Shown: piece after piece, positions 2,145 through 47,013 of the stretch
Layout: each line of letters starts with the position of its first letter
Numbering within the stretch: position 1 is the stretch's first letter
Sequence record: NZ_CP084508.1
Origin: a plasmid
Length of the DNA: 64,000 bases
Direction: 5' to 3' (one strand)
Translations under genes and position numbers: made by a program
The notes under the pieces: model-generated
The model's input: only the letters and a program-made list of their open reading frames with translations
What the model was told of the DNA's origin: nothing
The model's database searches: none

Positions 2145-2178
2145 TCACCCTCCGGTATACACAACAGAAGGGGAGTAA

Positions 2179-2901: not shown

Positions 2902-3684
2902 ATGAAAAAGAATTTAATTACACTGACAGTGGCTATTTCCGCAGCAGTATCTGGCTCTGCTATGGCGTGGACTGCAAATAGTCTTGGAGGTTCTGTAGAG
3001 TTTGGTGGGACATTGACACCTGCGGATATAGTGACACCATGGGAGGTTTACATTGGCTCGCCTGTAAATAATATAAATGCAGATATAAAAAAAGGGAGTC
3101 ATCTGGTTGATATTCCTGTTGTTAGTCCTATTCCAATTCTGGGGATTCGTACTACCACATCATCACCAATCAAGGGACAACCGGGAATTTCTCCACAGAT
3201 TGACTTCCAAGGGACAGTAGATATTAGTAAAATAAAAGATAACGAAGCGGTATTTCATGTTGATGTAGTAGATGTTTCGAACTCTAAAGTAATTGGTATG
3301 TTATCCGCCCCGTTACTGGTTGCTGCTGAGTATTCTTACACTGGACGATATGATGGAGCTTATATGATGCATGCGCAAAATGAGGGAGATGCTTTCTTTG
3401 GCGGTTTACCGCCAAAAGAAGGAGGCATTTCTCCTAGCATTCGTTCTCGCATTGAAAACATTAGTCCTGATTTTGTTCGGAAATATAATAACCAAGGATT
3501 CCCTAATCCAAGAAAGGTATCTAACGCCTGGAACTTTGCTGATGGTGATTATTATATCAGTGCTTTTTACGGGGCAGGTATTGAGCAGGGAAAATTAATC
3601 ACCCTCACTCTTGATACCCCTATAACAACATCTGATTCCATTACTTGGAAAGCCTCTCTGCCAATAACTATTTCCTATCGGTAA
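2902..3684 (+). CDS. putative fimbrial minor subunit/adhesin (260 aa, pilin-like C-terminus ...ITISYR)
   Basis: It has a signal peptide (MKKNLITLTVAISAAVSGSAMA). The C-terminal beta-strand shows the pilin-like alternating pattern with a penultimate aromatic residue. An RBS (AAAGGAG) is present and it sits in the operon. Confidence 0.45.
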   Translation: MKKNLITLTVAISAAVSGSAMAWTANSLGGSVEFGGTLTPADIVTPWEVYIGSPVNNINADIKKGSHLVDIPVVSPIPILGIRTTTSSPIKGQPGISPQIDFQGTVDISKIKDNEAVFHVDVVDVSNSKVIGMLSAPLLVAAEYSYTGRYDGAYMMHAQNEGDAFFGGLPPKEGGISPSIRSRIENISPDFVRKYNNQGFPNPRKVSNAWNFADGDYYISAFYGAGIEQGKLITLTLDTPITTSDSITWKASLPITISYR

Positions 3685-3885
3685 TCTGTCTGTTAGATAT
3701 AGAAGAGTAAAGCGTAGCTCTGCAGGAGGCATTCATAACCGACATGCAATAAGTTTTTCCATATAAAAAACTTATTGCATGTCGGTTATAATTTACTTTC
3801 GATATTATAATCGGAATACATTCTCAGGTCTTGGTTTGCTTTTATTTTCTACATTTCATTTACACACCTGGATAAAATAGAGTGA

Positions 3886-4689
3886 ATGCTGATGAAAGTA
3901 ACGCGCCGTTATAAATACCATCTCTCCGCTCTGATAACAGTCGCTCTGTTTTCTTCGGCCGCACCTCACGCAGATATTCTTGACGGTGGAGAAATTCAGT
4001 TCAACGGACTCGTTACTGACGAAGCGCAGAAATGGTCCTGGCAAATAAGTACGCCTGGTCAGACCTGGGCAGTGGACATGGCCGATGCTCGAACGGAGAA
4101 CGGGCAGTTGGTTTTTGATTTGCGTGATAAAGGCACCTTATCGTTTCTGGAAGGCCATCTGCATGAGGTGGCAGAGCGCGGCGGCCCCGGATTCATGCCA
4201 TTTATTACCTTCGGCAACAGTGGGCAACCTTTTACCGTAACGGAGGGTGGTGATACCTCGGCACAACGTTTTCGCGCCTTTGTCCCAGTACGAGACCCGG
4301 AAACGGGGAGCGTATCGGGGCAGCTTTTTTTCACCCTGAATCAGGGGATAGCGGTCAGTGCTGGCAGACAGGAAGACGGAGCCCCTGTTCCAGCTGGCAT
4401 GTCACTGGTCAGTGGACAGAGTGTAACGGAGGTGCAGTCAAACAATCTATCACAGAAGCTGAAATCTCGACTCTCTTCCTTATTGCTGATGAATCAGAAT
4501 TTCGGAAGTGGCATGAGTGCATTGGATAACGGTCTGGTTATCAGTCAGGGGGTACTGGCTGACGGTCGTGTAAAGAACCTGGCTGCATCGTATGCCTCTG
4601 CGGTGTCTGATTTTGAGCTGCGTTTGTCAGCTGAAGACACACCGGCAGCGTGGCAGGCAGGGCTGAATGTGACGGTCACTGTACAATAA
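3886..4689 (+). CDS. putative fimbrial minor subunit/adhesin paralog (267 aa, C-terminus ...NVTVTVQ)
   Basis: It has a signal peptide and a pilin-like C-terminal strand. It is tandem with its neighbours. The start may be the ATG at 3892. Confidence 0.4.
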
Positions 4690-4715
4690 TGGACGCAAGG
4701 ATATAAGAAAGAGAA

Positions 4716-5480
4716 ATGAAAAAGGTGACGTTGTTTCTGTTCGCTTTCAGCCTCCAACCTTCCTGTGTACTGGCTTGGAATACACCGGGAGAGAATTTCA
4801 GTGGAGAGCTTAAGCTGGAAGGTCCGGTGACCAACACACGTAATCCGTGGGTGTGGAAAGTCGGGCCGGGAAATGAACGTCTGGAGGTTAAGCCAAAAGG
4901 AGACACTCATAACAAGGCGCAGAGGATGCCTGTTTCTCTGCCAGCAATGACGATATTGCTGGGAAAAACCACATTGACCACACCGACAAGGCATGAGGGA
5001 TGCTCCCCCAAAGTAATCTATGGGAAGGAGGTAGAAGATTTTTCCCTTACATGGCTCGGAACAGGGATAGCCGAAGTAACGCTTCCCGTAAGCGGTAACA
5101 ACAGTCTCCGGGTGGGGACATTTGTTTTCAGGATGCAGGTGGCGGCGGTTCTGCGGCACAGACAGGACGGGCAGGATATATACGCCAGTGTACATAATGA
5201 CCTGAATACGAATGGTCTTCCTGGAGAGGGGCGAACCATGCAAGCAGGTAACGTCCCGAGTGTGCTGCAAATGATGTTCAACGGGGAAGGCCCAAACTGG
5301 CTGCAGGACATGGTGGTGACCGATACAATAGGCCTGAGCCGTTACAACGATGCTTCTCTGCGCCAGGTGGAGGGAGTTTACGGTACCCAGATAGTGGCTG
5401 ACAGCGGTGAGTTACGTCTGTTCGGGGCGGTACCGGATCGCTGGCTGGCATCACTACCAATAAGTATTGAATATCAATAG
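4716..5480 (+). CDS. putative fimbrial minor subunit/adhesin paralog (254 aa, C-terminus ...PISIEYQ)
   Basis: It has a signal peptide (MKKVTLFLFAFSLQPSCVLA). Its C-terminal motif W-x-A-S-L-P-I-S-I-x-Y-Q parallels that of the ORF at 2902-3684. Confidence 0.4.
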   Translation: MKKVTLFLFAFSLQPSCVLAWNTPGENFSGELKLEGPVTNTRNPWVWKVGPGNERLEVKPKGDTHNKAQRMPVSLPAMTILLGKTTLTTPTRHEGCSPKVIYGKEVEDFSLTWLGTGIAEVTLPVSGNNSLRVGTFVFRMQVAAVLRHRQDGQDIYASVHNDLNTNGLPGEGRTMQAGNVPSVLQMMFNGEGPNWLQDMVVTDTIGLSRYNDASLRQVEGVYGTQIVADSGELRLFGAVPDRWLASLPISIEYQ

Positions 5481-5596
5481 AAAGGGGACTGTCCTGAATA
5501 TTATTCATCATCTGAAGTCCGGTATGTTTCCAGCACTATTTATCTGACCCCGGCCAGCACACAAACTGAGCCCCTAGTTATACCGTCCGGACATTA

Positions 5597-6175
5597 GTGG
5601 AGAATACTATGCATCGTCGAAAACGCATACTGCTGATCGGTAACTGTGAATATGAGCTGCTGGGGTTGTCCCATCTACTGGTTTGTATGGGGTATGCTGT
5701 GGTGCGGCGGCCAAATGTGTCGCTTGGCAGGAAGGGGTATGACCTTACTCTAGTGGCACTAAGTGCGGAACTTCTGGCTGGCTGGGGGCGGCATTTACAG
5801 AGGGTCAGAAAGCTGTACGCAGCCAATCCTGTCCCAATGGTTTTGCTGGTTCCTTCCCGTCTGAAGGGCATGACGCTTCTGAGGGGAACGGCTCAGGTTA
5901 TCAATGGTCGTTACAACCTGAGTAAATTACGTACCATGTTACAACAGGCGTTTAAGGGGGCGTCAGACCCTGAACCTGCAGGAGAACTGACATGTCATCA
6001 GAAGAAGGCGCTGATGTCCTTGCGCATGGCGATAAATTGTAATGCCTCGCAGGAAGTAACGCCACATAAAGATTATTACCTCCGTTCTAGATTGGTAGAG
6101 CATGTTGGGGTGAAAAATCTACATGTGCTATGCGTGAGTGGTCTGTTATCTGAAGTGAACTGTTGGCAGGAGTGA
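5597..6175 (+). CDS. LuxR/FixJ-type regulator with degenerate (Asp-less) receiver-like N-terminus (FimZ/EcpR-like)
   Basis: The C-terminus (LTCHQKKALMSLRMAINCNASQEVTPHKDYYLRSRLVEHVGVKNLHVL) fits the GerE/LuxR HTH spacing pattern. The N-terminal RILLIGNCEYELLGL resembles a receiver strand but lacks the acidic pocket. The annotated start at 5597 is a GTG; the first ATG is at 5609. Confidence 0.4.
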   Translation: MENTMHRRKRILLIGNCEYELLGLSHLLVCMGYAVVRRPNVSLGRKGYDLTLVALSAELLAGWGRHLQRVRKLYAANPVPMVLLVPSRLKGMTLLRGTAQVINGRYNLSKLRTMLQQAFKGASDPEPAGELTCHQKKALMSLRMAINCNASQEVTPHKDYYLRSRLVEHVGVKNLHVLCVSGLLSEVNCWQE

Positions 6176-6306
6176 AAACCGATTATTATTGGTGAAATTA
6201 TTTTTCATCAGCATAGCGTTACGGTTATTTCTGTGAGTACGGATTTAGAATATACCGATGAACGGGTGACATCACTGAATTTTCCATTTTTAAAAGGAGT
6301 AGAATT

Positions 6307-8451
6307 TTGTTAGTCACTAATCGACGTCAGTTTATTAAGCTTGTTGTACAAACTATAGGGTCAGTATTTGCAATGGACTCATTATTTAGCAATATTCGAC
6401 TGGCTATAGCGAGCGAACCATCCATCGATGATGAATTCCTGTGGCTGGAAGATCTGCAGAGCAAAAGATCTCTGCAATGGGTACAGAAGGAAAATCAGCG
6501 CACTATGGCGCGTTTCACCCGGAGTAAAGAATTTTTGCGTGTTGAGCGAGAAATTCTGGACATACTCAATAAAGACACATTGATCCCCTGGGTGAGTAAA
6601 TATGGAAATTACTATTACAATTTTCGGCAAGGGCAGGACAATCCACAAGGGGTGCTAAGGCGTACAGTTCTGGTCGAGTATCGCAAGGCCGAGCCAGTTT
6701 GGGAGACGGTGTTGGATTTTGATGCGTTAGGAAAAGCGGAGGACAAGATGTGGGTTTATCAGGGTATGCAACCTTTGGCACCGGAATACCGATATTGCCT
6801 GATATACCTGTCGCCAGATGGTGGTGATGCCACCGAAATTCGCGAGTTCGATCTGGTGGCCAAATGTTTCGTAAAAGATGGCTTCAATGTACCTGTGGCG
6901 AAAAGCCGGGTATCATGGGTTGATCAGGATACATTGTTTATAGCTACCGATTTTGGCCCCGACTCAATGACTCGCTCTGGCTACATGCGCATAGTTAAAC
7001 GCTGGCGGCGTGGTAAGCCACTGAGCATTGCTGAAACGTTGTATGAAGCACGGCCTGAAGACGTGGAGGCCTTTGCTTATCACGATTACACACCTGGCTT
7101 TGAGCGTGATTTTGTCTGTCGAATAATAGACTTATATCACTGTGACTATTTTTGGCTGACTCAGGATGAGCAGCTTATTAAAATCGATATCCCGGCTGAT
7201 GCTGAACTGAGTACGCATCGGGAATGGATGTTAATCATGCTGAACAGCGACTGGGTAGTAGGCGGTAGGATCTATCCGTCTGGTGCACTGTTGGCAACTA
7301 ATTTCGACGATTATCTGGCGGGTAAGCGCGAATTACAGTTGCTGTTCACCCCCACTGTAGAGTGTGTGTTAAGCGGCTACAGCAAAACCCGCGATTATCT
7401 GATCCTCAGCATCATGGATAACGTAATCAATCGATTGGAGGTATTGATCCCGCAGAAAGGCTGCTGGCAGCATCACCCTCTGAGTAGTCCCGGTTCCATA
7501 TGCACTATTTCCGCTGACGGCATTGATGAAGAAAGTAACGACTATTTCCTGACCACCAGTGGATTTCTACAACCAACCTCGTTGTACATAGGTAACCTCG
7601 ATGGTGGTGAAGCCACATTACTGAAACAAGAGCCGCAGAATTTTGACGTCACGGCCTACCAAGTTAGCCAGCATTTCGCTCGCTCAAGAGACGGTACTCG
7701 TGTGCCATATTTCCAAATTGCTGCCAACGATCTCAAACTGAACGGTAGTACGCCGACTCAACTATATGGTTACGGCGGTTTTGCCGAGTCGCTACTGCCA
7801 GGATATCTGAATGACGAGGCTCCGGCCTGGTTGGAGCGCGGAGGAGTGTATGTCGTGGCTAACATTCGTGGTGGTGGCGAATATGGCCCTGCATGGCACA
7901 AAGCGGCGCTCAGACAAAATCGACATCGAGCTTATGAAGATTTTGTAGCCGTGGCTGAAGACCTGATTGCGCGCAAAGTAACCTCTACGCCACATTTGGG
8001 CATACGCGGTGAGAGTAACGGAGGCTTATTGGTAGGCAATATGTTAACGCTGTATCCGCAGTTATTCGGGTGCATTGTCTGTGGAATGCCTTTGCTGGAT
8101 ATGCAGCGTTATACTCAGCTTTCCGCTGGAGCGTCATGGATCGCAGAGTTTGGTGATCCGGACAAGCCTGAGCAGTGGGCCTATATCAAAACGTTTTCCC
8201 CATATCATAATATTAAAGCGCGAACGGCCTACCCACCGGTGTTATTTTATACAGCCACCAGTGATGACCGTGTTAACCCGGCTCATGCACGCAAAATGGC
8301 GGCGCGTATGCAGGCGATGGGGTATCAGCAGGTATACTTTTATGAGAATATTAAAGGAGGTGGGCACAGTTCTGCCGCGGACAAACAGCAAACGGCCTTT
8401 ATCAGTGCGATGGTGAGCGAGTTCATGTGGTCCAACTTGAATAACAAGTAG
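6307..8451 (+). CDS. S9-family prolyl oligopeptidase-like serine peptidase with twin-arginine (Tat) signal
   Basis: The start is TTG, preceded by AAGGAG. The N-terminus (NRRQFIKL) is a Tat motif. The nucleophile motif GESNGG lies near 8006-8023 and the C-terminus carries a ...GGGHS... His motif. The 714-aa length is typical of the prolyl oligopeptidase family. Confidence 0.8.
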   Translation: MLVTNRRQFIKLVVQTIGSVFAMDSLFSNIRLAIASEPSIDDEFLWLEDLQSKRSLQWVQKENQRTMARFTRSKEFLRVEREILDILNKDTLIPWVSKYGNYYYNFRQGQDNPQGVLRRTVLVEYRKAEPVWETVLDFDALGKAEDKMWVYQGMQPLAPEYRYCLIYLSPDGGDATEIREFDLVAKCFVKDGFNVPVAKSRVSWVDQDTLFIATDFGPDSMTRSGYMRIVKRWRRGKPLSIAETLYEARPEDVEAFAYHDYTPGFERDFVCRIIDLYHCDYFWLTQDEQLIKIDIPADAELSTHREWMLIMLNSDWVVGGRIYPSGALLATNFDDYLAGKRELQLLFTPTVECVLSGYSKTRDYLILSIMDNVINRLEVLIPQKGCWQHHPLSSPGSICTISADGIDEESNDYFLTTSGFLQPTSLYIGNLDGGEATLLKQEPQNFDVTAYQVSQHFARSRDGTRVPYFQIAANDLKLNGSTPTQLYGYGGFAESLLPGYLNDEAPAWLERGGVYVVANIRGGGEYGPAWHKAALRQNRHRAYEDFVAVAEDLIARKVTSTPHLGIRGESNGGLLVGNMLTLYPQLFGCIVCGMPLLDMQRYTQLSAGASWIAEFGDPDKPEQWAYIKTFSPYHNIKARTAYPPVLFYTATSDDRVNPAHARKMAARMQAMGYQQVYFYENIKGGGHSSAADKQQTAFISAMVSEFMWSNLNNK

Positions 8452-8539
8452 AATAATATACATCGACAGGAATTTAAACCGTAAAAACATTATTTCCTTA
8501 CAGGAGTCAGCCAATTCAAGACTCCTGAGCAACAAGCCG

Positions 8540-9230
8540 TATTGGCACTTCACCGGAGTCGTCAGAGTTTCATCAAACAACGGACCGCTCAGGCGAATCA
8601 AATACGGGGGCTATTGGCTGAATTTGGCATCGTTGTATCCCGGGGGATCCAGCAGTTACAACTACAGTTACCTGAGATCCTGGAAGATGCCAATAACTCA
8701 TTACCATATCTATTTCGTGTACAACTGAATCTGTTACAGCACCATATGACATATCTGTTCGATGTCATCGCTACGCTCGACAAGCAGATTGAGCAGTGCT
8801 ACCGCGCAAAATGCGCTATGTCAGCGTATCAGTATCAGCAAGATCCCAGGCATTGGCCCAGTCACCGCCACCGCACTCATTGCGACTATCGGCAACGCCA
8901 GCAATTTCGAAAATAGCCGGCAGTTGGCTGCCTGGTTAGGCCTGGTTCCACGTCAGCATTCAAGTGGTGACAAACAAGTCTTGCTCGGGATAAGCAAACG
9001 AGGTGATGTTTATTTATGAACCTTACTTATTCACGGAGCCAGGGCTGTGTTGCAGTCGGTCAAACGTAAACAGGATGCTGTATCGGGATGGGCCAGTCGG
9101 CTACTGGCACGCCGAAATAACAACATTGCCTCAGTAGCATTGGCTAATAAGAATGCGCGGATTGTGTGGGCACTATTGTCAAAAGACCAGGAATACTGTG
9201 CAGCAGTGATAAACGTTTAATTATCTGAGT
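8540..9230 (+). pseudogene. IS110-family transposase, 5'-truncated and frameshifted (middle plus C-terminal thirds read in three frames)
   Basis: Segments ALHRSRQSFIKQ...LLAEFGIVVSRG, then GIGPVTATALIATIGNASNFENSRQLAAWLGLVPRQHSSGDKQVLLGISKRGD, then ...LLIHGARAVLQSVKRKQDAVSGWASRLLARRNNNIASVALANKNARIVWALL lie in successive frames. Each is a hallmark IS110-family motif. Confidence 0.7.
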
Positions 9231-9482: not shown

Positions 9483-10511
9483 ACCATCTATGAATAAATC
9501 TAACTTTTAGGTGATTGGCGGATCTGATCGCTACAGTTTCTTCCGCATCGGATCCCCATGGCAAAGCAAAAGTTTAAAATCACCAACTGCTCAGCCTACA
9601 ACAAGGCACTCAGGCAGCGTGGTTCACTGACGATCTGGCTTGATGAATCAGCTATTGCTGCATGGACTGACAGTGCACAGCCTGAAGGTCGTGGCCGACC
9701 TCTGTACTACACCGATATGGCGATCACCACGGTTCTGATGATAAAGCGCGTGTTCAATCTGCCGCTCCGGGCATTACAGGGCTTCATTGACTCGATTTTT
9801 ACCCTTATGGTTTTGCCGCTGCGCAGCCCGGACTACTCTCTGGTCAGCAAACGTGCAAAGAGCATCAACATCAGCATAAAGACGCCAACCCGGGGAGAAA
9901 TCTCGCATCTGGTTATCGATGCTACTGGCCTGAAGGTCTTCGGCAAAGGGGTATGGAAAGTCAGGCAACATGGAGCTGACAGGCGCAGAGTATGGCGCAA
10001 ACTTCATCTGGCTGCAGACGGTGCGACGCATGAGATAATCTGTGCCGATTTATCGCTCAGCGGTACGACAGATGCGCAGGCACTTAACCAGACCCACAGA
10101 AAAATAAAGAAGGCTTCAGCAGATGGTGCTTATGACACGCGCTACTGTCATGATGCGTTGCTGAGGAAAAAAATCAGGCAACTTATCCCTCCACGAAACG
10201 GGGCGCAATACTGACCGGGCAGGTACCATGAACGTAACCATGCGGTGGCTAATCAGCATCTGAGCGGTAGTAATGACGAAAGTAGGCTACCATCGACGTT
10301 CCGTGGCAAAAACGGCGATGTTCCGTATCAAAACCTTGCTGGGCGGACACTTGAGCCTGCGAGACTACGACGCACAGGTGGGCGAAGCGATGGCGATGGT
10401 CAAAGCGCTAAACCGGATGACGTTGTTGGGTATGCCGCATAGTGTCCGGATCGCATAACGGGTGTACTGCTGCCCCCCCCTCTTCGGCTGACTCTGATTT
10501 ATTCAACAAAG
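9483..10511 (+). mobile_element. IS903-group (IS5 family) element, divergent copy 1, transposase frameshifted
   Basis: The right end is a perfect IS903 terminal repeat (GATTTATTCAACAAAGCC at 10494-10511) and the left end is a partial repeat (..TGAATAAATC at about 9491-9500). The transposase reads MAKQKFKITNCSAYNKALRQRGSLTIWLD... from 9558-10214 and continues in other frames at 10245-10458 (..SVAKTAMFRIKTLLGGHLSLRDYDAQVGEAMAMVKALNRM..). Confidence 0.75.
9558..10458 (+). pseudogene. IS903-like transposase, frameshifted
   Basis: The N-terminal 218 aa are in one frame and the C-terminal ~70 aa are in a second frame. Full-length IS903 Tnp is about 307 aa. Confidence 0.7.
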
Positions 10512-10572
10512 CCACGAACGTAACATCCAAAATCACTAAACATTCAAGTATTCGTAAACAAGCACAACATAT

Positions 10573-10596
10573 TTCGCTTTTTTACAAAAAAGCGAA
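10573..10596. repeat. perfect 11+11 inverted repeat TTCGCTTTTTT-AC-AAAAAAGCGAA in the AT-rich region upstream of the class-5 fimbrial operon
   Basis: This was read directly from the sequence. It could act as a bidirectional hairpin, terminator or binding site. Confidence 0.5.
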
Positions 10597-10989
10597 GTAA
10601 CTCGTTGAGTTTATTAAATAAATCACACAATTCAAAAGCAGGTAATACCTTTAATATTCTAAAGGTTTGCAAAAAATAAACAACAATAATAAGTTAGAAT
10701 TTTAAACTTAAAAATCAAAAAAACTCATAATTATCTGTTGTTATGAGCGTAACGAACAGTATTGTATGTTGCTCCGCCTAAGAATTATTAGCCATAAAAA
10801 CACCAATTACCACGCCAACACAAGACAAAAGATCGTCAATCTGCGTTTTGACAAGATTTAAAACCAATAATAGTCTATGTCGCACAAGTAGCTGTGAGCG
10901 CTTATTTACTACAAGATGGTGAAGCTCTTGTTGTTTTTATGTTACAGATATAGCTATCGTGTTTTATTTGTGCAGTTAATTAAATACTG

Positions 10990-11718
10990 GTGTCAGCGAT
11001 GGTAACCGTAATGATTAATAAATTAGCAATAAAAATTTCCTCATTTATTGGCCTGTTGTTTGTGATGACAAATGTAGAGGCCAATATTCAGGTCAGCCCA
11101 ATAAATATTACATTATCATCAGAGAATAAATATTCTGGATCAGTAAGAGTGTTTTCAAACTCCGATAAGACAATGTACATAAAAACATCAGTAAAAAGGA
11201 TTGTTAATCCTGGGACGCCTAAACAACAGGAGGTGCCCGTGGCTTCTGATGATAATGCAGGGGTTATCGCTTCCCCCCAGCGTTTTATTATTTCCGGACA
11301 AGGCTCTCACTTGGTAAGAATTCTTCCTATAAATATTCCTCAAAAAGAAGGGGTTTACAGGGTATATATATCGACTGTTCCTAGTGATAGCATTGATCAA
11401 GCGAGTACTAACAGAAGAGATGCTCAGATAACAATTAACGTTATCTGGGGAGTTCTTGTCTATGTGACACCTGAGCATAAAATTATTTCGTTTTCATACG
11501 ATAACGTATCAGGCAAATTAAAAAATACAGGAAATGTCCACGTTCGCATATCAGCATATGATTTTTGTTATAAGGAGGATAGTTGCCAGTGGAAAACAAT
11601 TAATCGTGCTATTTATCCTGACATGAATTATAAAATCACAGATAAAGCCCCCCCCCACTCTTTTTTATTTATTAAATATCAGTTAGGGGGAGCCCCTGTG
11701 ACTTTAAAAGTAAACTGA
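10990..11718 (+). CDS. class-5 (alternate chaperone-usher, CS1/CFA-I type) fimbrial periplasmic chaperone, CooB/CfaA-like
   Basis: The translation shares CooB-style blocks (VRVFSNSDKTMYIKTSVKRIVNPG... and ...QKEGVYRVYIS...). It is 242 aa and the first gene of a four-gene operon with CS1/CFA-I gene order. The segment is low-GC. The start may be an internal ATG. Confidence 0.7.
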   Translation: MSAMVTVMINKLAIKISSFIGLLFVMTNVEANIQVSPINITLSSENKYSGSVRVFSNSDKTMYIKTSVKRIVNPGTPKQQEVPVASDDNAGVIASPQRFIISGQGSHLVRILPINIPQKEGVYRVYISTVPSDSIDQASTNRRDAQITINVIWGVLVYVTPEHKIISFSYDNVSGKLKNTGNVHVRISAYDFCYKEDSCQWKTINRAIYPDMNYKITDKAPPHSFLFIKYQLGGAPVTLKVN

Positions 11719-11745
11719 TACCATTAACTTTTTGAGGTTCTATGT

Positions 11746-12228
11746 ATGAAAATTAAACATATTGTCTTTAGCTCTCTAATCTCTCTTCCATTTTTGGCAA
11801 ACGCCACCACAAATGGTACAGCGACGATTAATGTATCTGCTGACGTTAATCCTGCAGTAGGAATTGTATCTGCTAACAATACTCCATTGACAGATATACA
11901 ATTAGCCTTTGTCCCTGGTGTTGGGCTGCAAGCTGGAACCGAAATGGTTCGTCTTGCCAGTAATGATACCGCCCATGGTGTTGATGTTAGTCTTGCTAAT
12001 GCAATGCAGTTAACAAATTCAGCAGATGCATCTACCGTCCCCATGACTGTTACACTGGCGGGGAAAACATTAAGCACCTCACCAACTAGCTATGAAAAAA
12101 CATTATTTTCTGAGGGGGAGACCAGCCCTATGCAACTATCTGTCAAGCCAACTTCAGATTCAAAGAATCTAACAGCAGGTCATTATGCTGGGATTATTAA
12201 TCTGGTATTAGCTCAGTCTACAAAATAA
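11746..12228 (+). CDS. class-5 fimbrial major pilin, CooA/CfaB-like
   Basis: It is 160 aa with a signal peptide. The C-terminus (AGHYAGIINLVLAQSTK) parallels CooA (AGNYQGLVSIVLTQEP). Confidence 0.65.
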   Translation: MKIKHIVFSSLISLPFLANATTNGTATINVSADVNPAVGIVSANNTPLTDIQLAFVPGVGLQAGTEMVRLASNDTAHGVDVSLANAMQLTNSADASTVPMTVTLAGKTLSTSPTSYEKTLFSEGETSPMQLSVKPTSDSKNLTAGHYAGIINLVLAQSTK

Positions 12229-12250
12229 TTCAAGTAAAAAGGTGATATAA

Positions 12251-14914
12251 ATGAGGGGAGGGGTTATTTGTTTTCAAAGGTTATCCCATTTATTCTTTTG
12301 GGTGCTAATTATCATTAGCAACTCCCCTGTATATGCAAAAGATAGCATTCCGGCAGGATTTGAAGCTCTCAGTTTTGGACAGGATGAGCTTCTAAATATC
12401 TCTTTTCATGGTGAAAACGAGGGCGTTTTTACTGTTTTTGTTACGCCTGAATATCTAACATTTAAAGAACCAAATAAATTATTCGCAAAACTTCCTTTAG
12501 ATGGCGTGCCAGAAAACATCAGAAAAAAAATACTTTTTGAACTAGCTATGCCAATATCTAGGCATGATAAGGATTTTTATTTTGCCCCAGAGGAAAATAT
12601 CGGGATTATCTATAATGAGCAAGAACAATCGGCCATGCTACTGATAACTCCAAGGTGGGTAAAAAATAATAGCCAACACTTTTTCCACCAAAGCTACAAT
12701 GCTCGTTCAGCGCTGGTAAGTCATCAGTCACTTGTGTTTAGCCATGATGGGCACATGGAAAGCTTAGGAGGAACCGGCTACTTTGCTCAGGGAGTAGGTA
12801 GATCAAACTATATACAAGGTGACTGGGTTCTTTTTCAAAATGTGGGAGAGAGAGGCTCATCTTCACAATTTCAGTTTAATAATCTGTATTTGCGTACTGA
12901 TATAACACCTCGTATTTATAGCCAAGTAGGACGAATGGATTTGACTAACCTAAGCTCACGCTTGGGGGGGGATTTTTCACTATCTCTCCTGCCACAATCT
13001 CAAATAGATGGTTTGCGTATTGGCTCAAGTAATGCGTATCTTAATACGGAAAATATTACAACTACGGCTACACCATTAACAGTCATATTAACGCAACCAG
13101 CGAGAGTTGATATTTATCAAGGGAGACAGTTAATTGGCAGCAGTTATCTGATGGCTGGTATCCATGATGTTGATACGAATAACTTTCCCGCCGGAGCTTA
13201 TCCTGTATTATTAAAAATCTTCCAAAATGGGAAACTAATTCGTCAAGAAACACAGTTTTTCGAAAATAGTGATAGAAATCAGCCAGCAGCAGGAGAAATA
13301 CAATGGTTTTTTCAGGTCGGGAAACAACATGCATCGAATGATTATAGTGCAGCATCGAAGTTGACTAAAAAAAACAAAGAAGAAACACAATTCGCCGGAG
13401 GTATTCGATTCGGCCTATCTAGTCATCTGAGTCTAACAAGTGCACTGATGGGGAGAAAAACTGGCTCTCCATTCAGTGAAAGTGACCTAACGTGGACTCT
13501 ACCCACTAGAGCAGGCATCTTATCATTAAAATATAGCTATTTGATGAAAGAAGGAAAAGGTATTTCTGATAGTGAGCAACTGGGTTGGGATTATAGCAAC
13601 ATGGCACTCAACATATCACGCTATCATACATTTTGTACAAATCAAATTAGTTGCCATAATAATTATGGCGTCATAGCCAGCACAAGTAAATATGGGTGGA
13701 CAGCTTCGTTAGGATATAATTATTCATATTCAGCACAACGTTTTTTGCAGCCATTGGAGTATGAGAGAGACGAATCTTCTTACATAAATCCATCTATTCA
13801 TCAACAAAATAGTGGGTTATCATTATACTCATCACAATATGTAACATCCAGTATATTGCTAACATTAGGAACATCGACGAACTATCAGGATTGGAGTATT
13901 TGGCCAAGAATAGGCATGTTCAGCAATCGAAGTAGTGGTAGCGACAATCACGATAATGGGATTTTTTTAACTGTATCATTATCAAAAAACATGCAATCGT
14001 CATCCAATTTTAACCATAATACAACGGCTTCGTTGGACTATCGGCAGCATAGTCAGAATAATAATATATCATTACGCCAACAGTGGGTTTGGAGTGGTCA
14101 GCACTATCGTTCGCTAGACGCGACACTATCTGGTGGAAGGTATTACCAGAACGCTTTGGTTAATACTGAATTGGGTAGCTCACTAGGAAATGCGGGGATA
14201 TCGTTTAGCTATGACCGCTCGAAACAATATACAAATAAAACTATAAGTGGACACTACGACTCAACATTCACAATTTCATCAGCAGGATTTGTATTAGGAA
14301 ATGGTGATGGAAATGAATCTAGTCTTTCTGGAGTTATTATTGATTCTAAAAATCAGAATCAAAAAGAGCTAATAGGACCTATAGCTAAAATAACATCAAT
14401 GCAAGGGGGGGATGCATACATTAGCTATGGGAGCAAACTGTTTATTCCAACGATGGACTATATGGCCGACAAAATCAATATTGAGGATGCAATTGGTTAC
14501 GAAACTAATGGTAACCTGATTAATGGGGCCGGTACACAAAACATCTTCCTGTTACCAGGGCATGTCACCATCAGTCGGTTACGTGCTAATACAATTTATA
14601 TTTATGTTGGACGTCTTTTGGTTAATGGGGAAAATATTCTGGCTGGCGGGCATATTCTTAATGCTGATGTCCCTGATATAAATCCAGATGGCACCTTTGT
14701 TGTAGAGTTTAATTACTCCCCGAAGTCATTATACATACTGAAAGATCGAGATTTTTTTATTTGCCCTATAAAATATAAGGAGGGATTTAACGGTATCCGC
14801 AAAGTGAATGCTGCAAATTGTCATCAAGTAAGTGATACAACTTTACCATCAATAATAAAGAACTCTGATCGAGTGGCTAGACTTCTTTCTATAACAAATG
14901 AAAATAAACATTAA
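12251..14914 (+). CDS. class-5 fimbrial outer-membrane usher, CooC/CfaC-like
   Basis: It is an 887-aa beta-rich protein in the third position of the operon. The size and position match CooC/CfaC. Confidence 0.8.
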   Translation: MRGGVICFQRLSHLFFWVLIIISNSPVYAKDSIPAGFEALSFGQDELLNISFHGENEGVFTVFVTPEYLTFKEPNKLFAKLPLDGVPENIRKKILFELAMPISRHDKDFYFAPEENIGIIYNEQEQSAMLLITPRWVKNNSQHFFHQSYNARSALVSHQSLVFSHDGHMESLGGTGYFAQGVGRSNYIQGDWVLFQNVGERGSSSQFQFNNLYLRTDITPRIYSQVGRMDLTNLSSRLGGDFSLSLLPQSQIDGLRIGSSNAYLNTENITTTATPLTVILTQPARVDIYQGRQLIGSSYLMAGIHDVDTNNFPAGAYPVLLKIFQNGKLIRQETQFFENSDRNQPAAGEIQWFFQVGKQHASNDYSAASKLTKKNKEETQFAGGIRFGLSSHLSLTSALMGRKTGSPFSESDLTWTLPTRAGILSLKYSYLMKEGKGISDSEQLGWDYSNMALNISRYHTFCTNQISCHNNYGVIASTSKYGWTASLGYNYSYSAQRFLQPLEYERDESSYINPSIHQQNSGLSLYSSQYVTSSILLTLGTSTNYQDWSIWPRIGMFSNRSSGSDNHDNGIFLTVSLSKNMQSSSNFNHNTTASLDYRQHSQNNNISLRQQWVWSGQHYRSLDATLSGGRYYQNALVNTELGSSLGNAGISFSYDRSKQYTNKTISGHYDSTFTISSAGFVLGNGDGNESSLSGVIIDSKNQNQKELIGPIAKITSMQGGDAYISYGSKLFIPTMDYMADKINIEDAIGYETNGNLINGAGTQNIFLLPGHVTISRLRANTIYIYVGRLLVNGENILAGGHILNADVPDINPDGTFVVEFNYSPKSLYILKDRDFFICPIKYKEGFNGIRKVNAANCHQVSDTTLPSIIKNSDRVARLLSITNENKH

Positions 14915-14960
14915 CTATACTAATCGGTATATTAATGACATATCTCGGCGAACGGTAAAA

Positions 14961-16070
14961 ATGAATAAATTTATCAAATTAATCATATTGATTGCAGTGA
15001 TATCCTGGAAACCTACAATATCAATGGCCTCAACACCATCTGATTATTCATCAACTATAAACATAGAGAAATCCTATGATTTAAACTCACCATTGCCTGA
15101 GATTTATTTATGGGAAAATAAACGTATCAATATACCAACGCCCAATGGAAAGCCTAATGGTTTAGACTTTTTTCTTAGCTGTTTATCTGATAGCAATGAT
15201 AATTATGGAGCATGCCCGACCTTACCCACTTGGAATGGTGAGGGGAGTTATGTTTTATTATCATTTGTTGAAAAAAAAACGAATATAAAACACGCAGTGG
15301 TGGTTAAAGGAACTGTAAATAATAGTTGCTCTATAATAAAGTTTACAGGAGCACCTGGTGGATGTCCATACAACGGATTAAATTATAATGTATATATACC
15401 ACAAGATGAATTAAAAAAATTCCCCATTGGAGGGGTTTGGTTTGCTCATTTAAAGTTACGGACAGGTCAATGGCATGCAGGTGTAGGCTCTATCAACGAT
15501 AGTTGGCCTGGTTTTATGGACGCCTATTGGGAGGCAAATATTACTTTAAATATAACTGATAATAATAATATTCGCATCTGGTTTCCTCAGTTCCATGGCA
15601 ATACTGCCAATATTATAATGCCTATTATACCTGCATATTGGGCATCAAATACTCCTAGCCGGGTTATGGCAGAAAAAATAATAGACACCTGTTTATACGA
15701 TGGTTATAACAGTAATAGTAAGACATTTCAAATAACATTCAATAGTGATGATATTGATAATACTTCTCAAGAGTTTATTTTACGACGAGCAACAACACCA
15801 GGAGAGTCATTTTTACCTTATCAGATTTTTGTTTCATCCCCTGGTTCATCCGAAGCCCTCCAAATGGTAAAGCCTGGTGAACAACTAATTTATTCAGGAA
15901 TGAGTTCTATAGCCATACGGCAAGTAATGATGCCAGGATTACCAGAACCTGTAGCTTGTGCCCCATGGTCAATAAAAATAAAGCTCAAGCCATTTGATTT
16001 ATCAAAACAGCAAGCGGGCCATTATGTTGGCGTACTAAAAGTAACTTTCACCCCATCCTTGGATAAATGA
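14961..16070 (+). CDS. class-5 fimbrial minor tip adhesin, CooD/CfaE-like
   Basis: The start is taken at MNKFIKLIILIAVISW (signal peptide). The protein is about 370 aa. The C-terminal pilin-domain strand (AGHYVGVLKVTFTPSLDK) repeats the major-pilin motif. It is in the fourth position as in CS1/CFA-I. Confidence 0.6.
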   Translation: MNKFIKLIILIAVISWKPTISMASTPSDYSSTINIEKSYDLNSPLPEIYLWENKRINIPTPNGKPNGLDFFLSCLSDSNDNYGACPTLPTWNGEGSYVLLSFVEKKTNIKHAVVVKGTVNNSCSIIKFTGAPGGCPYNGLNYNVYIPQDELKKFPIGGVWFAHLKLRTGQWHAGVGSINDSWPGFMDAYWEANITLNITDNNNIRIWFPQFHGNTANIIMPIIPAYWASNTPSRVMAEKIIDTCLYDGYNSNSKTFQITFNSDDIDNTSQEFILRRATTPGESFLPYQIFVSSPGSSEALQMVKPGEQLIYSGMSSIAIRQVMMPGLPEPVACAPWSIKIKLKPFDLSKQQAGHYVGVLKVTFTPSLDK

Positions 16071-16693
16071 TAATCATGAACTATTTTTGCTTTTTAGGCG
16101 AGTGCAAATATACTAAGTTGGCGTTTAATTCATTAATACATGAGTTACCAGTAAGATCATGTTCGATACCAATCAATTATTATGAATTGCTCAATAAGCA
16201 ATTGGAGATTGAGGATAGTGTTTTTATTTTCATTTTACTACCCACAAATGGAATAACAAATTTCTATGATGGAGCTTTTCATCAACTTGCTAATATTTTA
16301 GAGAGACATAAAACTGTAATTGGGGGGGCTGTTTTTTTTACTTCAAATGAAGTTGAGAGAAATATTGCAATATTGACTTGTCAAATAACAGGTTTATATG
16401 TTTGGGTCTTTGATAAAAAAACACAAATCAAAACAGCAAAAGATATCATAATTGACATAGCAAATTCAAAATATTGCGAGAAAAATCTAGTGACTAAAGA
16501 AATAATAACTTGGAGAGAGCTTGAGATATTAGAAATGATTCTCGCTGGGTATAGTTACAATGACATTGCATCTTTTTTTTCGCTATCAGTAAAAACCATA
16601 TACTCATATGTATATGCCATACAGAGGAAGATGTTAATAAAAAAAATCATACATCTTTTCTTTTTATCTGAGCTAACTCAGAACTTCTCTTAA
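16067..16693 (+). CDS. LuxR/GerE-family HTH transcriptional regulator
   Basis: The C-terminus (ITWRELEILEMILAGYSYNDIASFFSLSVKTIYSYVYAIQRKM) fits the LuxR HTH consensus. Its start overlaps the adhesin gene stop. Confidence 0.55.
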   Translation: MIIMNYFCFLGECKYTKLAFNSLIHELPVRSCSIPINYYELLNKQLEIEDSVFIFILLPTNGITNFYDGAFHQLANILERHKTVIGGAVFFTSNEVERNIAILTCQITGLYVWVFDKKTQIKTAKDIIIDIANSKYCEKNLVTKEIITWRELEILEMILAGYSYNDIASFFSLSVKTIYSYVYAIQRKMLIKKIIHLFFLSELTQNFS

Positions 16694-17010: not shown

Positions 17011-17397
17011 CTACCCTTTATTATAGCGATGAATTAGGTGGCTAACTATAACTATTAGTAACACAACCATAAGTTGATAGCTACCCACTCCATACCATGG
17101 GCGTTCGTCGAGAAAAACGATTTCTCCAATTTGTCCAAGCGTGTGACTAAATTGCTCCTTATCTGCAATATAGTCAAGCAATGGGAACGTACCCGTGATG
17201 AACCATGCAGCCAGAACACCATTAACAAACCACGTAGGAAATAGATCAATAAAGTCTATCAAGTTTCTTCCTCGCCATGAATAATGCTGTGCCTTGAAAA
17301 AAATATACCAAGCTGCTATGCAAAATGCCGTCCATATCAGCATAGAAAAAGTAATCGCCCTAAAAAAATCCACTCCATCATTTATAACATCAAGCAT
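17011..17397 (-). CDS. hypothetical small membrane protein (3-4 predicted TM segments)
   Basis: It is 128 aa and hydrophobic. No family was recognised. Confidence 0.3.
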   Translation of the reverse strand: MLDVINDGVDFFRAITFSMLIWTAFCIAAWYIFFKAQHYSWRGRNLIDFIDLFPTWFVNGVLAAWFITGTFPLLDYIADKEQFSHTLGQIGEIVFLDERPWYGVGSYQLMVVLLIVIVSHLIHRYNKG

Positions 17398-29472: not shown

Positions 29473-30456
29473 TTATACGGAAAAGTGTATTTTTTTTCTA
29501 TATTGTGTTGGGGTCATATTATAGTTAATCTTAAAATACCTAACCGCTATACTTAACGACTTAAAACCACTTTCCAGAGAGAGTAGTTCGATGCTAGATG
29601 TCGGGTTTCTAATTATCTTGTTTAATAAAAGCTCACTTCTTTGTTTATTTAGATACTCATAAAACTTAATATTATACTTTTTTAGTTTGTATTGAATTGC
29701 CCTAGGGGTTAAATTGTAATAATTAGACATTTCACACAAGGAAAAATTGACTTTTTTCATATTACTGCGAATGTAATCTTGCATTGATAATATATCAACA
29801 TCATAATTCCTATGTTTTTTTGGAGGGGGGGAGTTATCTAACTGTAGACTCAAAATACTAATTATGGCGTTTACTATTTTTGTAGAATAGCGCTCACTTG
29901 TTGTTTTATAAAGTTGCAAAGCTAAAGAGTTTAGCATGTCGCCATATCCATGTAATGACAACCCACTCCAACACCATGAATTTATATCGCTTTTATCGTC
30001 ACAAACACTACTAAGCTTAATGATAAACGATAAGCTATTTCTATGCGTCAAACAAGTCTCAACATAAGGCTCCCACGCTGGGATAAGTATACTCTCTCCC
30101 CTGGGTACATGAATACGTCGTTGGGGTGAAGTAACAATTAATCCCGAACAAGCATGGAGTAAAATAATATGCTTTTCTTGTGCATGAATAACATCATGAT
30201 GAATAAGTGATATCTGTTGAGGTGATGAGTTAACCTTAACCATTATTACTTTATTACTAAACTCATTTAATTGAATATCTCCATTAAATGCATCCATATC
30301 TCCATTCTTGGGGATTTTCATATCGGCTTTAAAAAAGCCAAGCTTTTGTTTGGCCACATTAGACCACTCTTCAATACCACTCTCTCCACAAGCATTTAAT
30401 GTATAATTATTCACCATAAATAAAAAGTAACAAATTATTATGAAGGGGTATTTCAC
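29473..30456 (-). CDS. AraC/XylS-family transcriptional regulator (327 aa), low GC
   Basis: The C-terminus has AraC-type HTH repeats (..NYYNLTPRAIQYKLKKYNIKFYEYLNKQRSELLLNKIIRNPTSSIELLSLESGFKSLSIAVRYFKINYNMTPTQYRKK). The gene contains C7 and A8 tracts (DNSPPPKKH). Confidence 0.75.
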   Translation of the reverse strand: MKYPFIIICYFLFMVNNYTLNACGESGIEEWSNVAKQKLGFFKADMKIPKNGDMDAFNGDIQLNEFSNKVIMVKVNSSPQQISLIHHDVIHAQEKHIILLHACSGLIVTSPQRRIHVPRGESILIPAWEPYVETCLTHRNSLSFIIKLSSVCDDKSDINSWCWSGLSLHGYGDMLNSLALQLYKTTSERYSTKIVNAIISILSLQLDNSPPPKKHRNYDVDILSMQDYIRSNMKKVNFSLCEMSNYYNLTPRAIQYKLKKYNIKFYEYLNKQRSELLLNKIIRNPTSSIELLSLESGFKSLSIAVRYFKINYNMTPTQYRKKIHFSV

Positions 30457-35516: not shown

Positions 35517-35579
35517 GACAACCTCGACTAATTAGTTGATGTTAGTAATTGAAGTCCATTTCATCGTTTTAACGCAATA

Positions 35580-47003: not shown

Positions 47004-47013
47004 GGATAACGCA

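What the first reader, a model, noticed from the sequence alone, without database searches (positions are those of the whole stretch)
10990..16693. Low-GC class-5 (CS1/CFA-I-like) fimbrial operon with in-frame G/C homopolymer tracts in every gene
This alternate chaperone-usher operon (chaperone, major pilin, usher, tip adhesin) is typical of ETEC colonisation factors. It is AT-rich. Yet it carries a C9 tract in the chaperone (11648-11656), G8 in the usher (12964-12971), G7 in the adhesin (14404-14410) and G7 plus T8 in the LuxR-type regulator (16323-16338). The distant low-GC AraC gene (29473-30456) has C7 plus A8 (29816-29833). Such tracts are unexpected in AT-rich genes. They are classic slipped-strand mispairing (phase-variation) substrates. 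All are currently in frame.
Basis: seen in the sequence. Interest (0 to 1): 0.65.

Follow-up and report, generated by a model that had tools for sequence, protein, structure and literature searches.

The report
Edwardsiella plasmid fimbrial operon with G/C runs
This is an intact CFA/I-like (alpha, class 5) fimbrial operon on the large plasmid of the Edwardsiella tarda type strain; it carries more long G or C runs than chance predicts, but nothing shows that these runs act as on/off switches.

Summary
The runs exist: C9 (11648-11656, chaperone), G8 (12964-12971, usher), G7 (14405-14411), G7+T8 (16322-16328, 16332-16339, LuxR-type gene), and C7+A7 in the AraC gene. Three details are wrong. The G7 at 14405 lies in the usher, not the adhesin. 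The pilin and adhesin have no G/C run. Several coordinates are off by one. Four G/C runs of 7 or more compare with 0.5-0.7 expected from synonymous-codon shuffles (P 0.0007-0.0025). Other genes in the window avoid such runs. Eleven other alpha-fimbrial operons, including CFA/I and CS1, show a weaker excess (about 2.5-fold).

The operon is a true alpha/class 5 chaperone-usher operon, but it is not from ETEC. It sits on the 145.7-kb plasmid of E. tarda ATCC 15947 and is already annotated there.

Phase variation is unsupported. Run lengths are identical in every available assembly of this plasmid. The runs are not conserved in homologues. In related operons they change only by base substitution. 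They show no 5' bias. Most likely they are unconserved runs at Gly-Gly and Pro-Pro codons, and at most low-rate frameshift hot spots. Interest is low to moderate.

The parts
10514..10989 (+). AT-rich upstream region between the IS5-family end and the chaperone gene; the presumed promoter and regulatory region
   Evidence: Read directly from the sequence. The IS5 match ends near 10513. Only weak AT-rich inverted repeats are present and no recombinase gene is adjacent, so there is no sign of an invertible switch. Promoter function is inferred; the consensus scan was not above shuffles.
10990..11718 (+). Periplasmic chaperone, CfaA/TcfA-like. The ORF starts at GTG 10990. Public annotations call shorter products of 239 and 235 residues, which correspond to starts near 10999 and 11011.
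   Evidence: PDB CfaA 6k73_A E=3.2e-26 and 4y2o_A E=5.7e-26. NCBIfam TcfA 112 bits, below the equivalog cut-off of 500. Weak PapD_N and EcpB_C Pfam hits.
11648..11656 (+). C9 run in the chaperone (GCC CCC CCC CAC; Ala-Pro-Pro-His, codons 220-223 of 242)
   Evidence: It lies in an indel-rich, non-conserved loop; homologues read ASKEKS, N-EDG, KENH and similar. A +1 or -1 slip gives a stop after 9-12 codons and alters only the last ~22 residues. Length is 9 in five assemblies.
11746..12228 (+). Major pilin, CS1 type; no G/C run
   Evidence: PF04449 Fimbrial_CS1 E=1.6e-13. Weak TcfB and CblA NCBIfam hits. Run scan.
12251..14914 (+). Outer-membrane usher, TcfC/CooC type (887 aa)
   Evidence: PF16967, PF17271 and PF15976. 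NCBIfam TcfC 373 bits, below the cut-off of 1428. Public sources name it TcfC or TcfC E-set like domain-containing protein of E. tarda.
12964..12971 (+). G8 run in the usher (TTG GGG GGG GAT; Leu-Gly-Gly-Asp, codon 238)
   Evidence: The Gly-Gly dipeptide is conserved in all homologues, but the codons drift (GGG GGA, GGG GGC, GGT GGG, GGA GGA), so the run itself is not conserved. A slip gives a stop after 14-23 codons.
14405..14411 (+). G7 run in the usher, not the adhesin (CAA GGG GGG GAT; Gln-Gly-Gly-Asp, codon 719 of 887)
   Evidence: GGG GGG is shared with L006 and L008 only.
14898..16070 (+). Tip adhesin, CfaE/CblD family. NCBI's 369-residue product corresponds to a start near 14961. It has no G/C run; it has an A9 at 15271-15279.
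   Evidence: PF07434 E=2.7e-65. PDB CfaE 6k73_C E=1.6e-27..
16067..16693 (+). LuxR/GerE-type HTH regulator gene whose start overlaps the adhesin stop by 4 bases (16067-16070). It is an orphan with 29% GC.
   Evidence: PF00196 GerE E=6.6e-10. Weak EcpR-like hit NF047921 E=8e-6, 26 bits against a cut-off of 300. No relative among 5.8 billion clustered proteins by word search. Only 23 hits with E<=1e-3 among 1.84 billion representatives; 20 of the 22 non-self hits have their best stretch inside the HTH, aa 143-200. Absent from the fetched homologous loci.
16322..16339 (+). Composite G7 (16322-16328) plus T8 (16332-16339) in the regulator gene (ATT GGG GGG GCT GTT TTT TTT; codons 86-91 of 208)
   Evidence: A slip gives a stop after 6-17 codons and removes the HTH. 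Lengths are identical in three assemblies.
29473..30456 (-). Isolated low-GC AraC-family gene carrying C7 (29825-29831) and A7 (29815-29821), which encode Ser-Pro-Pro-Pro-Lys-Lys at about 64% of the gene. Its link to the operon is unproven.
   Evidence: PF12833 HTH_18. Best NCBIfam hits are RhrA and FeaR, with no Rns/CfaD-type model listed. It is flanked by IS genes at 27528-28112 and 30752-31603. It is 28% identical over 303 aa to the AraC gene downstream of the Salmonella homologue operon L008. Run lengths are the same in CP082940.1 and UFYK01000002.1.
9558..10513 (+). IS5-family element bounding the island on the left; it contains the C8 at 10473-10480
   Evidence: DDE_Tnp_1 families on the same gene in L002. 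97% match to IS5-family ends on Edwardsiella plasmids.

Best explanation
This is an intact, horizontally acquired alpha-class (class 5, CFA/I-CS1-Tcf-Cbl type) chaperone-usher fimbrial operon on the ~145.7-kb F-type plasmid of Edwardsiella tarda ATCC 15947. Assembly is inferred from the CFA/I paradigm: the CfaA-like chaperone caps subunits in the periplasm, the TcfC/CooC-like usher assembles them, the two-domain CfaE-like adhesin starts the fibre, and the CS1-type pilin forms the shaft. A lineage-specific LuxR/GerE-type regulator gene starts 4 bases before the adhesin stop codon, so it is probably co-transcribed (inferred). The G/C runs are real and over-represented. Each is a Gly-Gly or Pro-Pro(-Pro) dipeptide written with GGG or CCC codons and flanked by a matching base. 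They arise and disappear by base substitution, are not conserved between homologous operons, and are not placed where a switch would work best. The most likely reading is that they are unconserved codon runs that this poorly expressed, foreign operon tolerates, perhaps favoured by run-extending mutation bias. On this reading they are not evolved contingency switches. As a side effect they must be frameshift hot spots: any +1 or -1 slip truncates the chaperone, usher or regulator. They could therefore produce rare, reversible fimbria-negative variants.
For: Operon identity: Pfam, NCBIfam and PDB matches for all four structural genes. Host and replicon: 100% identity to CP082940.1 and UFYK01000002.1, source names 'Edwardsiella tarda ATCC 15947 = NBRC 105688', and F-type backbone matches to E. 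tarda plasmids. Runs are Gly-Gly or Pro-Pro codons. Enrichment: 4 observed against 0.5-0.7 expected. Not conserved: at the conserved usher Gly-Gly sites the codons drift among seven operons, and the C9 lies in a variable indel-rich loop. No length polymorphism: five assemblies of this plasmid are identical over the operon, and the AraC run is the same in two others. The same comparison did detect one real homopolymer difference elsewhere (A7 against A6 at 33118-33124), so it was sensitive enough. In 10 alleles (95-100% identical) of a related IncI/IncF-plasmid alpha operon, every run difference is a substitution that keeps the frame; one site reads C10, CAGTC6 or CAGC7. In a 68%-identical Salmonella operon with a G9 in the adhesin, the listed forms are 61 full-length copies plus fragments. 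Most fragments are labelled partial, and the N-terminal ones read through the run in frame. None of the forms listed and read begins or ends at the run. No truncated usher clusters exist in the family. No 5' bias: the runs lie at 90%, 27%, 81%, 41% and 64% of their genes. N-terminal bias is the published signature of coding-repeat phase variation (PMC3315296).
Against: The excess of runs is not explained by codon usage alone, and it extends to the family. Eleven other alpha operons have 14 G/C runs of 7 or more against 5.9 expected. Dropping a near-duplicate gives 12 against 4.85, P=0.004. GGG-GGG at Gly-Gly dipeptides occurs 20 times against 10.5 expected, whereas the other window genes have 0 of 76 against 3.5 expected. 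Low-GC non-alpha genes sit at expectation: 2 against 1.3. So some force favours runs in alpha operons, and selection for mutability is one candidate. One relative has a C10 at codon 22 of its usher, a classic switch position. All assemblies of the window plasmid come from one strain. Consensus assemblies hide minority variants. PGAP drops frameshifted genes from protein sets. The comparisons therefore bound only high-frequency, fixed variation.
Confidence: 0.55

Rival explanations
1. The runs are true contingency loci. Slipped-strand mispairing at C9, G8, G7 and G7/T8 reversibly switches the chaperone, usher or regulator, and hence the fimbriae, off and on. Selection for this mutability keeps the runs in alpha-fimbrial operons.
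For: Runs are 6-8 fold over codon-shuffle expectation here and about 2.5-3 fold across the family, while control genes avoid them or sit at expectation. Every slip gives an early stop. A relative has a C10 at usher codon 22. E. coli can show rare reversible frameshifts at an A7 in a low-GC surface-structure gene, kpsC (PMC13410964).
Against: No length polymorphism in any comparison. The runs are not conserved and are created or destroyed by substitutions. They show no 5' bias, and the longest run (C9) would alter only the last ~22 residues of the chaperone. A 2022 review of chaperone-usher fimbrial regulation cites slipped-strand control only for the Haemophilus Hif promoter (PMC9820224).
Confidence: 0.28
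2. The enrichment is a look-elsewhere fluctuation. A reader scanning 64 kb will find some 6-kb stretch with a few long runs, and the family-wide signal reflects shared ancestry of a few sites.
For: P values are about 1e-3 and uncorrected for selection of the region. Close homologues taken alone are not significant: 6 against 3.2, P=0.08. Some runs are at homologous sites in several operons.
Against: Operons not used for discovery still show 12 against 4.85 (P=0.004). Most runs lie at non-homologous sites. Other genes in the same window are depleted.
Confidence: 0.12
3. The runs are sequencing or assembly artefacts.
For: None found. Homopolymers are a known weak point of long-read assemblies (general knowledge).
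Against: Independent NCBI assemblies and two Logan run assemblies agree base for base over the operon. All genes stay in frame.
Confidence: 0.02

Closest known systems
ETEC class 5 fimbriae: CFA/I (cfaABCE), CS1 (cooBACD), CS14
   Same: Same gene order and the same four protein families. The adhesin matches CfaE and the chaperone matches CfaA in the PDB. They are low-GC and plasmid-borne among IS elements. CFA/I and CS1 also carry coding G7/G8 runs: two G7 in cfaE and one G8 in cooC.
   Different: The ushers are only about 25% identical. The host is Edwardsiella tarda, not ETEC. No Rns/CfaD-type activator is evident; instead an orphan LuxR/GerE-type gene overlaps the end of the operon.
Salmonella Typhi colonisation factor Tcf (tcfABCD) and Tcf-like plasmid operons of Salmonella, E. 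coli and E. fergusonii
   Same: All four proteins hit the TcfA-D NCBIfam models best. The plasmid Tcf-like ushers are about 33% identical and also carry many G/C runs.
   Different: Scores are far below the equivalog cut-offs (for example TcfC 373 against 1428), so these are not Tcf orthologues.
Uncharacterised alpha-fimbrial operons of E. tarda chromosomes and of Salmonella enterica and E. coli (ushers P0002-P0017)
   Same: These are the closest relatives. Ushers are 46-78% identical, with the same four genes in the fetched loci (one contig ends before the adhesin) and low GC (40-45%). A published survey noted an E. tarda homologue (62% identity) of divergent plasmid alpha ushers in Salmonella serovars Horsham and Roodepoort (PMC9238391).
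   Different: No LuxR-type gene was found in any fetched homologous locus. One Salmonella group has EAL and AraC genes downstream instead. Their G/C runs are mostly at other positions.
Slipped-strand phase variation of surface structures: Haemophilus Hif fimbrial promoter repeats, Neisseria and Campylobacter poly-G/C coding tracts, and the E. coli K96 kpsC A7
   Same: Homopolymer runs lie in genes for a surface organelle, and a slip would abolish the product.
   Different: No length variation was observed, the runs show no 5' bias and they are not conserved. Hif is a promoter dinucleotide repeat (PMC9820224). The kpsC case is a rare event, with about 0.004% unencapsulated cells (PMC13410964).
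EcpR (MatA), the LuxR-type regulator of the E. coli common pilus
   Same: A small LuxR-type HTH protein encoded in a fimbrial operon. It is the only NCBIfam model that aligns beyond the HTH, covering aa 38-191.
   Different: It scores 26 bits against a cut-off of 300. EcpR is the first gene of its operon, whereas this gene is the last. The N-terminal 140 residues have essentially no detectable relatives.

Membership tests
Alpha (class 5, alternate) chaperone-usher fimbriae | Gene order: chaperone, major pilin, usher, tip adhesin | tested here: met
   ORFs at 10990-11718, 11746-12228, 12251-14914 and 14898-16070, all on the + strand
Alpha (class 5, alternate) chaperone-usher fimbriae | Usher of the TcfC/CooC type rather than the PapC type | tested here: met
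   PF16967 E=4.8e-18, PF17271 E=1e-17, PF15976 E=1.1e-5
Alpha (class 5, alternate) chaperone-usher fimbriae | CS1-type major subunit and two-domain CfaE/CblD tip adhesin | tested here: met
   PF04449 E=1.6e-13 and PF07434 E=2.7e-65; PDB CfaE E=1.6e-27
Alpha (class 5, alternate) chaperone-usher fimbriae | CfaA/CooB-type chaperone | tested here: met
   PDB CfaA E=3e-26 over residues 31-231
ETEC colonisation factors (CFA/I, CS1 and relatives) | Carried by enterotoxigenic E. coli and orthologous to a named CF | tested here: not met
   The host is E. tarda ATCC 15947. There is no megablast match in 5,426 complete E. coli genomes or in PLSDB. Ushers are about 25% identical to CfaC, CooC and CsuC.
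ETEC colonisation factors (CFA/I, CS1 and relatives) | Activation by an Rns/CfaD-type AraC regulator | tested here: inconclusive
   The only AraC gene (29473-30456) gives RhrA and FeaR as its best NCBIfam hits and no Rns-type model. Regulation itself cannot be tested here.
Tcf fimbriae (tcfABCD orthologues) | Scores above the NCBIfam equivalog cut-offs for TcfA-D | tested here: not met
   112 against 500, 61.5 against 384, 373 against 1428, 87 against 589 bits
Slipped-strand (simple-sequence-repeat) contingency locus | A hypermutable repeat whose length change shifts the frame | tested here: met
   C9, G8, G7 and G7+T8 are present, and every +1 or -1 change gives a stop within 6-37 codons
Slipped-strand (simple-sequence-repeat) contingency locus | Repeat length varies between isolates, stocks or cells | tested here: not met
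   Lengths are identical in all assemblies of this plasmid. Related operons vary only by substitution. No frameshifted forms were found in homologue clusters. Read-level data were not available.
Slipped-strand (simple-sequence-repeat) contingency locus | Repeat placed near the 5' end or in the promoter, and kept in orthologues | tested here: not met
   Positions are at 27-90% of the genes. The runs are not conserved.
Slipped-strand (simple-sequence-repeat) contingency locus | Observed reversible on/off switching of the phenotype | not testable with these tools
   This needs culture experiments.
EcpR/MatA-type fimbrial regulators | Score above the NF047921 cut-off | tested here: not met
   26 bits against 300

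The most novel reading that the evidence does not exclude
Alpha-class fimbrial operons across Enterobacterales (this E. tarda operon, its Salmonella and E. coli relatives, Tcf-like plasmid operons, and even CFA/I and CS1) share a selected excess of coding G/C runs. These runs would act as low-rate, reversible mutational off-switches for an immunogenic surface organelle. That would be a form of phase variation not described for this fimbrial class or, in coding form, for chaperone-usher fimbriae of enteric bacteria.
Probability: 0.12. Interest if true: 0.6.

Novelty: new member of a known kind. Interest (0 to 1): 0.3.

Why it matters
If the runs did switch, an unrecognised bet-hedging mechanism would control a whole class of adhesins. 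That class includes the ETEC vaccine antigens CFA/I and CS1, so antigen loss during infection or vaccine-strain culture would become a concern. As it stands, the value is more modest. The finding documents an uncharacterised alpha-fimbrial operon with an orphan LuxR-type regulator on the plasmid of the human-derived E. tarda type strain. It shows a reproducible roughly 2.5-3 fold excess of long G/C runs in alpha-fimbrial operons that a codon-usage null does not explain. It also gives a worked example where the obvious 'homopolymer means phase variation' inference is not borne out by comparative data.

Tried and rejected
- **Megablast searches.** The operon found only the IS5 end in PLSDB and nothing in complete E. 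coli genomes. The E. coli M605 homologue operon also found nothing in complete E. coli genomes, so no E. coli population sample was available for the close family.
- **Genome-contig scan** with the usher alone confirmed no relatives. I did not repeat it with a profile.
- **Exact look-ups.** P0009 and the 327-aa AraC ORF were not on record. I reached the AraC run through the neighbouring usher instead.
- **LuxR-type protein.** The word-based search found only the protein itself. The exhaustive search found almost only HTH-level hits.
- **Assembly artefact:** rejected.
- **Invertible-promoter switch:** only weak AT-rich inverted repeats upstream and no recombinase gene adjacent.
- **Programmed frameshifting or transcriptional slippage as the purpose of the runs:** all genes are already in frame, and no alternative-frame extension appears.
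- **Contig breaks in Salmonella assemblies as a read-out of G9 instability:** rejected, because the N-terminal fragments read through the run and end about 40 codons later.
- **P0070 (a 284-aa usher form) as a slip product:** rejected, because it diverges at about residue 279, well past the G7 site at about residue 198.
- **Promoter and terminator consensus scan:** not above shuffles.


Full report
**1. What is in the sequence**

- C9 at 11648-11656.
- G8 at 12964-12971.
- G7 at 16322-16328, followed three bases later by T8 at 16332-16339.
- On the minus strand of the ORF 29473-30456, C7 (29825-29831) and A7 (29815-29821).

The ORF map shows five co-directional genes.
- 10990-11718: 242 aa.
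- 11746-12228: 160 aa.
- 12251-14914: 887 aa.
- 14898-16070: 390 aa.
- 16067-16693: 208 aa.

The G7 at 14405 is therefore in the 887-aa usher (codon 719), not in the adhesin. The pilin and the adhesin have no G/C run of six or more; the adhesin has an A9 at 15271-15279. 'Tracts in every gene' is wrong. 'All in frame' is right.

**2. Is it more than chance?**

The operon is 36.7% GC. Each G/C run is a Gly-Gly or Pro-Pro dipeptide written with GGG or CCC codons and flanked by a matching base.

I shuffled synonymous codons while keeping the proteins and the operon's codon usage.
- Pooled shuffle: 0.51 runs of 7 or more expected against 4 observed, P=0.0007.
- Within-gene shuffle: 0.66 expected, P=0.0025.
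- Markov-1 and Markov-2 models: 0.33-0.42 expected, P<=0.002.
- A/T runs of 8 or more are mildly enriched too: 6 against 2.7-2.9, P=0.02.

The controls behave differently.
- The other 34 ORFs of the window have 1 run against 2.7 expected, and 5 runs of 6 or more against 10 expected. This is the usual avoidance.
- The two other chaperone-usher operons on the same plasmid have none.
- The low-GC non-fimbrial genes of ETEC plasmid p948 have 1 against 0.68 expected, and its higher-GC genes 0 against 2.4.

The excess is real.

**3. What the locus is and where it comes from**

All four structural proteins fall in the alternate (alpha, class 5) chaperone-usher families.
- Pilin: Fimbrial_CS1.
- Usher: TcfC E-set, TcfC barrel and CooC_C domains.
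- Adhesin: CblD/CfaE.
- Solved structures: the adhesin matches CfaE (E=1.6e-27) and the chaperone matches CfaA (E=3e-26).
- NCBIfam's TcfA-D models are the best hits but score far below their equivalog cut-offs.

The fifth gene encodes a GerE/LuxR-type HTH protein.

An exact look-up of the pilin found the locus in GCA_019933175.1 (CP082940.1, 145,764 bp), GCA_900447385.1 (UFYK01000002.1, 145,762 bp), GCA_000264805.1 and two Logan run assemblies. Each is 100% identical to the window over its aligned stretch, up to 16.5 kb for the two complete plasmids. Source names give Edwardsiella tarda ATCC 15947 = NBRC 105688. The right-hand part of the window matches F-type backbones of other E. tarda plasmids at 92-94%.

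The operon lies between an IS5-family element and IS3 remnants. It is not an ETEC locus. It has no near match in PLSDB or in complete E. coli genomes. Its usher is about 25% identical to CfaC, CooC and CsuC and about 33% to Tcf-like plasmid ushers.

The nearest relatives are uncharacterised operons.
- 78% usher identity: chromosomal operons in other E. tarda strains.
- 46-69%: Salmonella enterica and E. coli.

A published Salmonella fimbriome survey already noted an E. tarda homologue of such divergent plasmid alpha ushers (PMC9238391).

**4. Test of the phase-variation idea**

(a) Stability within the strain. All five assemblies have the same run lengths wherever they cover the operon. The AraC run is C7/A7 in two further assemblies. 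The comparison was sensitive enough to see a difference. Across 39 kb compared, the single difference is a homopolymer: A7 in the window against A6 in both complete assemblies, at 33118-33124 in an IS630-like transposase.

(b) Conservation. In codon alignments of seven operons, the two usher Gly-Gly dipeptides are conserved as protein, but their codons drift: GGG GGG, GGG GGA, GGG GGC, GGT GGG, GGA GGA. The C9 lies in an indel-rich loop that no homologue shares.

(c) Population samples of relatives.
- Ten alleles (95-100% identical) of an IncI/IncF-plasmid alpha operon differ at their runs only by substitutions that keep the frame. One site reads C10, CAGTCCCCCC or CAGCCCCCCC.
- A Salmonella operon with a G9 in its adhesin has 61 full-length adhesin records plus fragments, against about 101 pilin records. 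Most fragments are labelled partial. The N-terminal fragments read through the run in frame. None of the forms listed and read begins or ends at the run.
- No truncated usher clusters were found. The one short form diverges well past its G7 site.

(d) Position. The runs lie at 90%, 27%, 81%, 41% and 64% of their genes. Coding-repeat switches are typically biased to the N-terminal end (PMC3315296). A slip in the C9 would change only the last ~22 residues of the chaperone.

(e) Consequence. Every +1 or -1 change gives a stop within 6-37 codons. The runs would therefore inactivate the genes if they slipped.

(f) Literature. A 2022 review of chaperone-usher fimbrial regulation cites slipped-strand control only for the Haemophilus Hif promoter. 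E. coli can show rare reversible A7 slips in kpsC.

**5. A family-wide signal**

Other alpha operons also carry runs.
- CFA/I has two G7 in cfaE.
- CS1 has a G8 in cooC.
- The Salmonella Newport plasmid operon has a C10 at usher codon 22 and two G7.
- The E. fergusonii allele has a G7 and a G8.
- CS14 has none.

The pooled counts against codon-shuffle expectation are as follows.
- Five distant operons: 8 against 2.7, P=0.005.
- Six close homologues: 6 against 3.2, P=0.08.
- All operons except the window and one near-duplicate: 12 against 4.85, P=0.004.
- GGG-GGG at Gly-Gly dipeptides: 20 of 154 against 10.5 expected. In the other window genes it is 0 of 76 against 3.5 expected.

These operons share ancestry, so the tests are not fully independent. 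Still, alpha operons appear not merely to tolerate long G/C runs but to carry roughly 2.5-3 times more than expected. I cannot tell whether run-extending mutation bias, weak selection or selection for mutability causes this.

**6. The regulators**

The LuxR-type protein is an orphan.
- The word-based search of 5.8 billion clustered proteins returned only itself.
- The exhaustive search of 1.84 billion representatives returned 23 hits at E<=1e-3. Twenty of the 22 non-self hits have their best stretch inside the HTH, residues 143-200.
- A weak EcpR-like match (26 bits against a cut-off of 300) is the only hint about the N-terminal part.
- No fetched homologous locus has this gene.

The AraC gene lies 13 kb away between IS genes and is not of the Rns/CfaD type by NCBIfam. 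It is 28% identical over its full length to an AraC gene downstream of the Salmonella homologue operon. This is a lead, not proof of a link to the operon.

**7. Verdict**

- Observation: partly confirmed.
- Identity of the operon: supported, but the host attribution to ETEC is wrong.
- Phase variation: not supported by any available comparison, although low-rate slippage cannot be excluded without reads or experiments.

The most likely account (0.55) is an ordinary, already annotated alpha-fimbrial operon whose G/C runs are unconserved codon runs and incidental frameshift hot spots. A true contingency mechanism keeps about 0.28. Novelty: a new member of a known kind. Interest: 0.3.

Noticed in passing
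window 33118-33124 (ORFs 32643-33140 and 33137-33676): The only difference between the window and two other complete assemblies of the same plasmid over 39 kb is a homopolymer: A7 here against A6 in CP082940.1 and UFYK01000002.1. It lies at the junction of the HTH and DDE_3 ORFs of an IS630-like transposase, a plausible slippery site. The window therefore comes from a third assembly.
   Followed up: partly
window 16067-16693: The LuxR/GerE-type gene at the end of the operon (29% GC) is an orphan. Its N-terminal ~140 residues have almost no detectable relative among 1.84 billion representative proteins.
   Followed up: partly
window 54245-54252, 59890-59898 and 10473-10480: Three long G/C runs lie outside genes. 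A G8 lies between ORFs. A G9 lies 6 nt beyond the stop of the minus-strand ORF 59904-60980, in the part of the window that matches E. tarda plasmid backbones (replication protein, traX, finO). A C8 lies inside the IS5-family end just upstream of the operon.
   Followed up: no
window 1-5480 and 34995-38916: The same plasmid segment carries two more chaperone-usher operons: a K88/Pef-AfrB-like one and one with a PapC-type usher, a PapD-type chaperone and a Caf1-like subunit. It also carries a cus/sil copper-silver efflux cluster at 40909-50160, all interleaved with IS elements.
   Followed up: partly
L008-L010 (Salmonella homologue operon), adhesin 7660-8766 and usher 5001-7598: Dozens of Salmonella draft assemblies break inside this adhesin (around residues 134-225) and inside the usher, giving many 'partial' proteins. 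The breaks are not at the G9 run, and their cause is unknown.
   Followed up: partly
L018-L027 (IncI/IncF plasmid alpha operons), alignment columns 4391-4408: Some alleles of the adhesin gene carry an in-frame 18-nt insertion bounded by G runs. At usher codon 22 a C6 run becomes C7 or C10 purely by substitutions.
   Followed up: partly
L008-L010, gene at about 1928-2992 (minus strand): A NicO-family gene next to the Salmonella homologue operon varies in length between isolates (348, 351 and 354 aa), which suggests an in-frame repeat polymorphism.
   Followed up: no
window 17011-17397 (minus strand): A 128-aa ORF of hydrophobic sequence just downstream of the operon has no Pfam or NCBIfam match. 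It is called as a gene in the public annotations.
   Followed up: no
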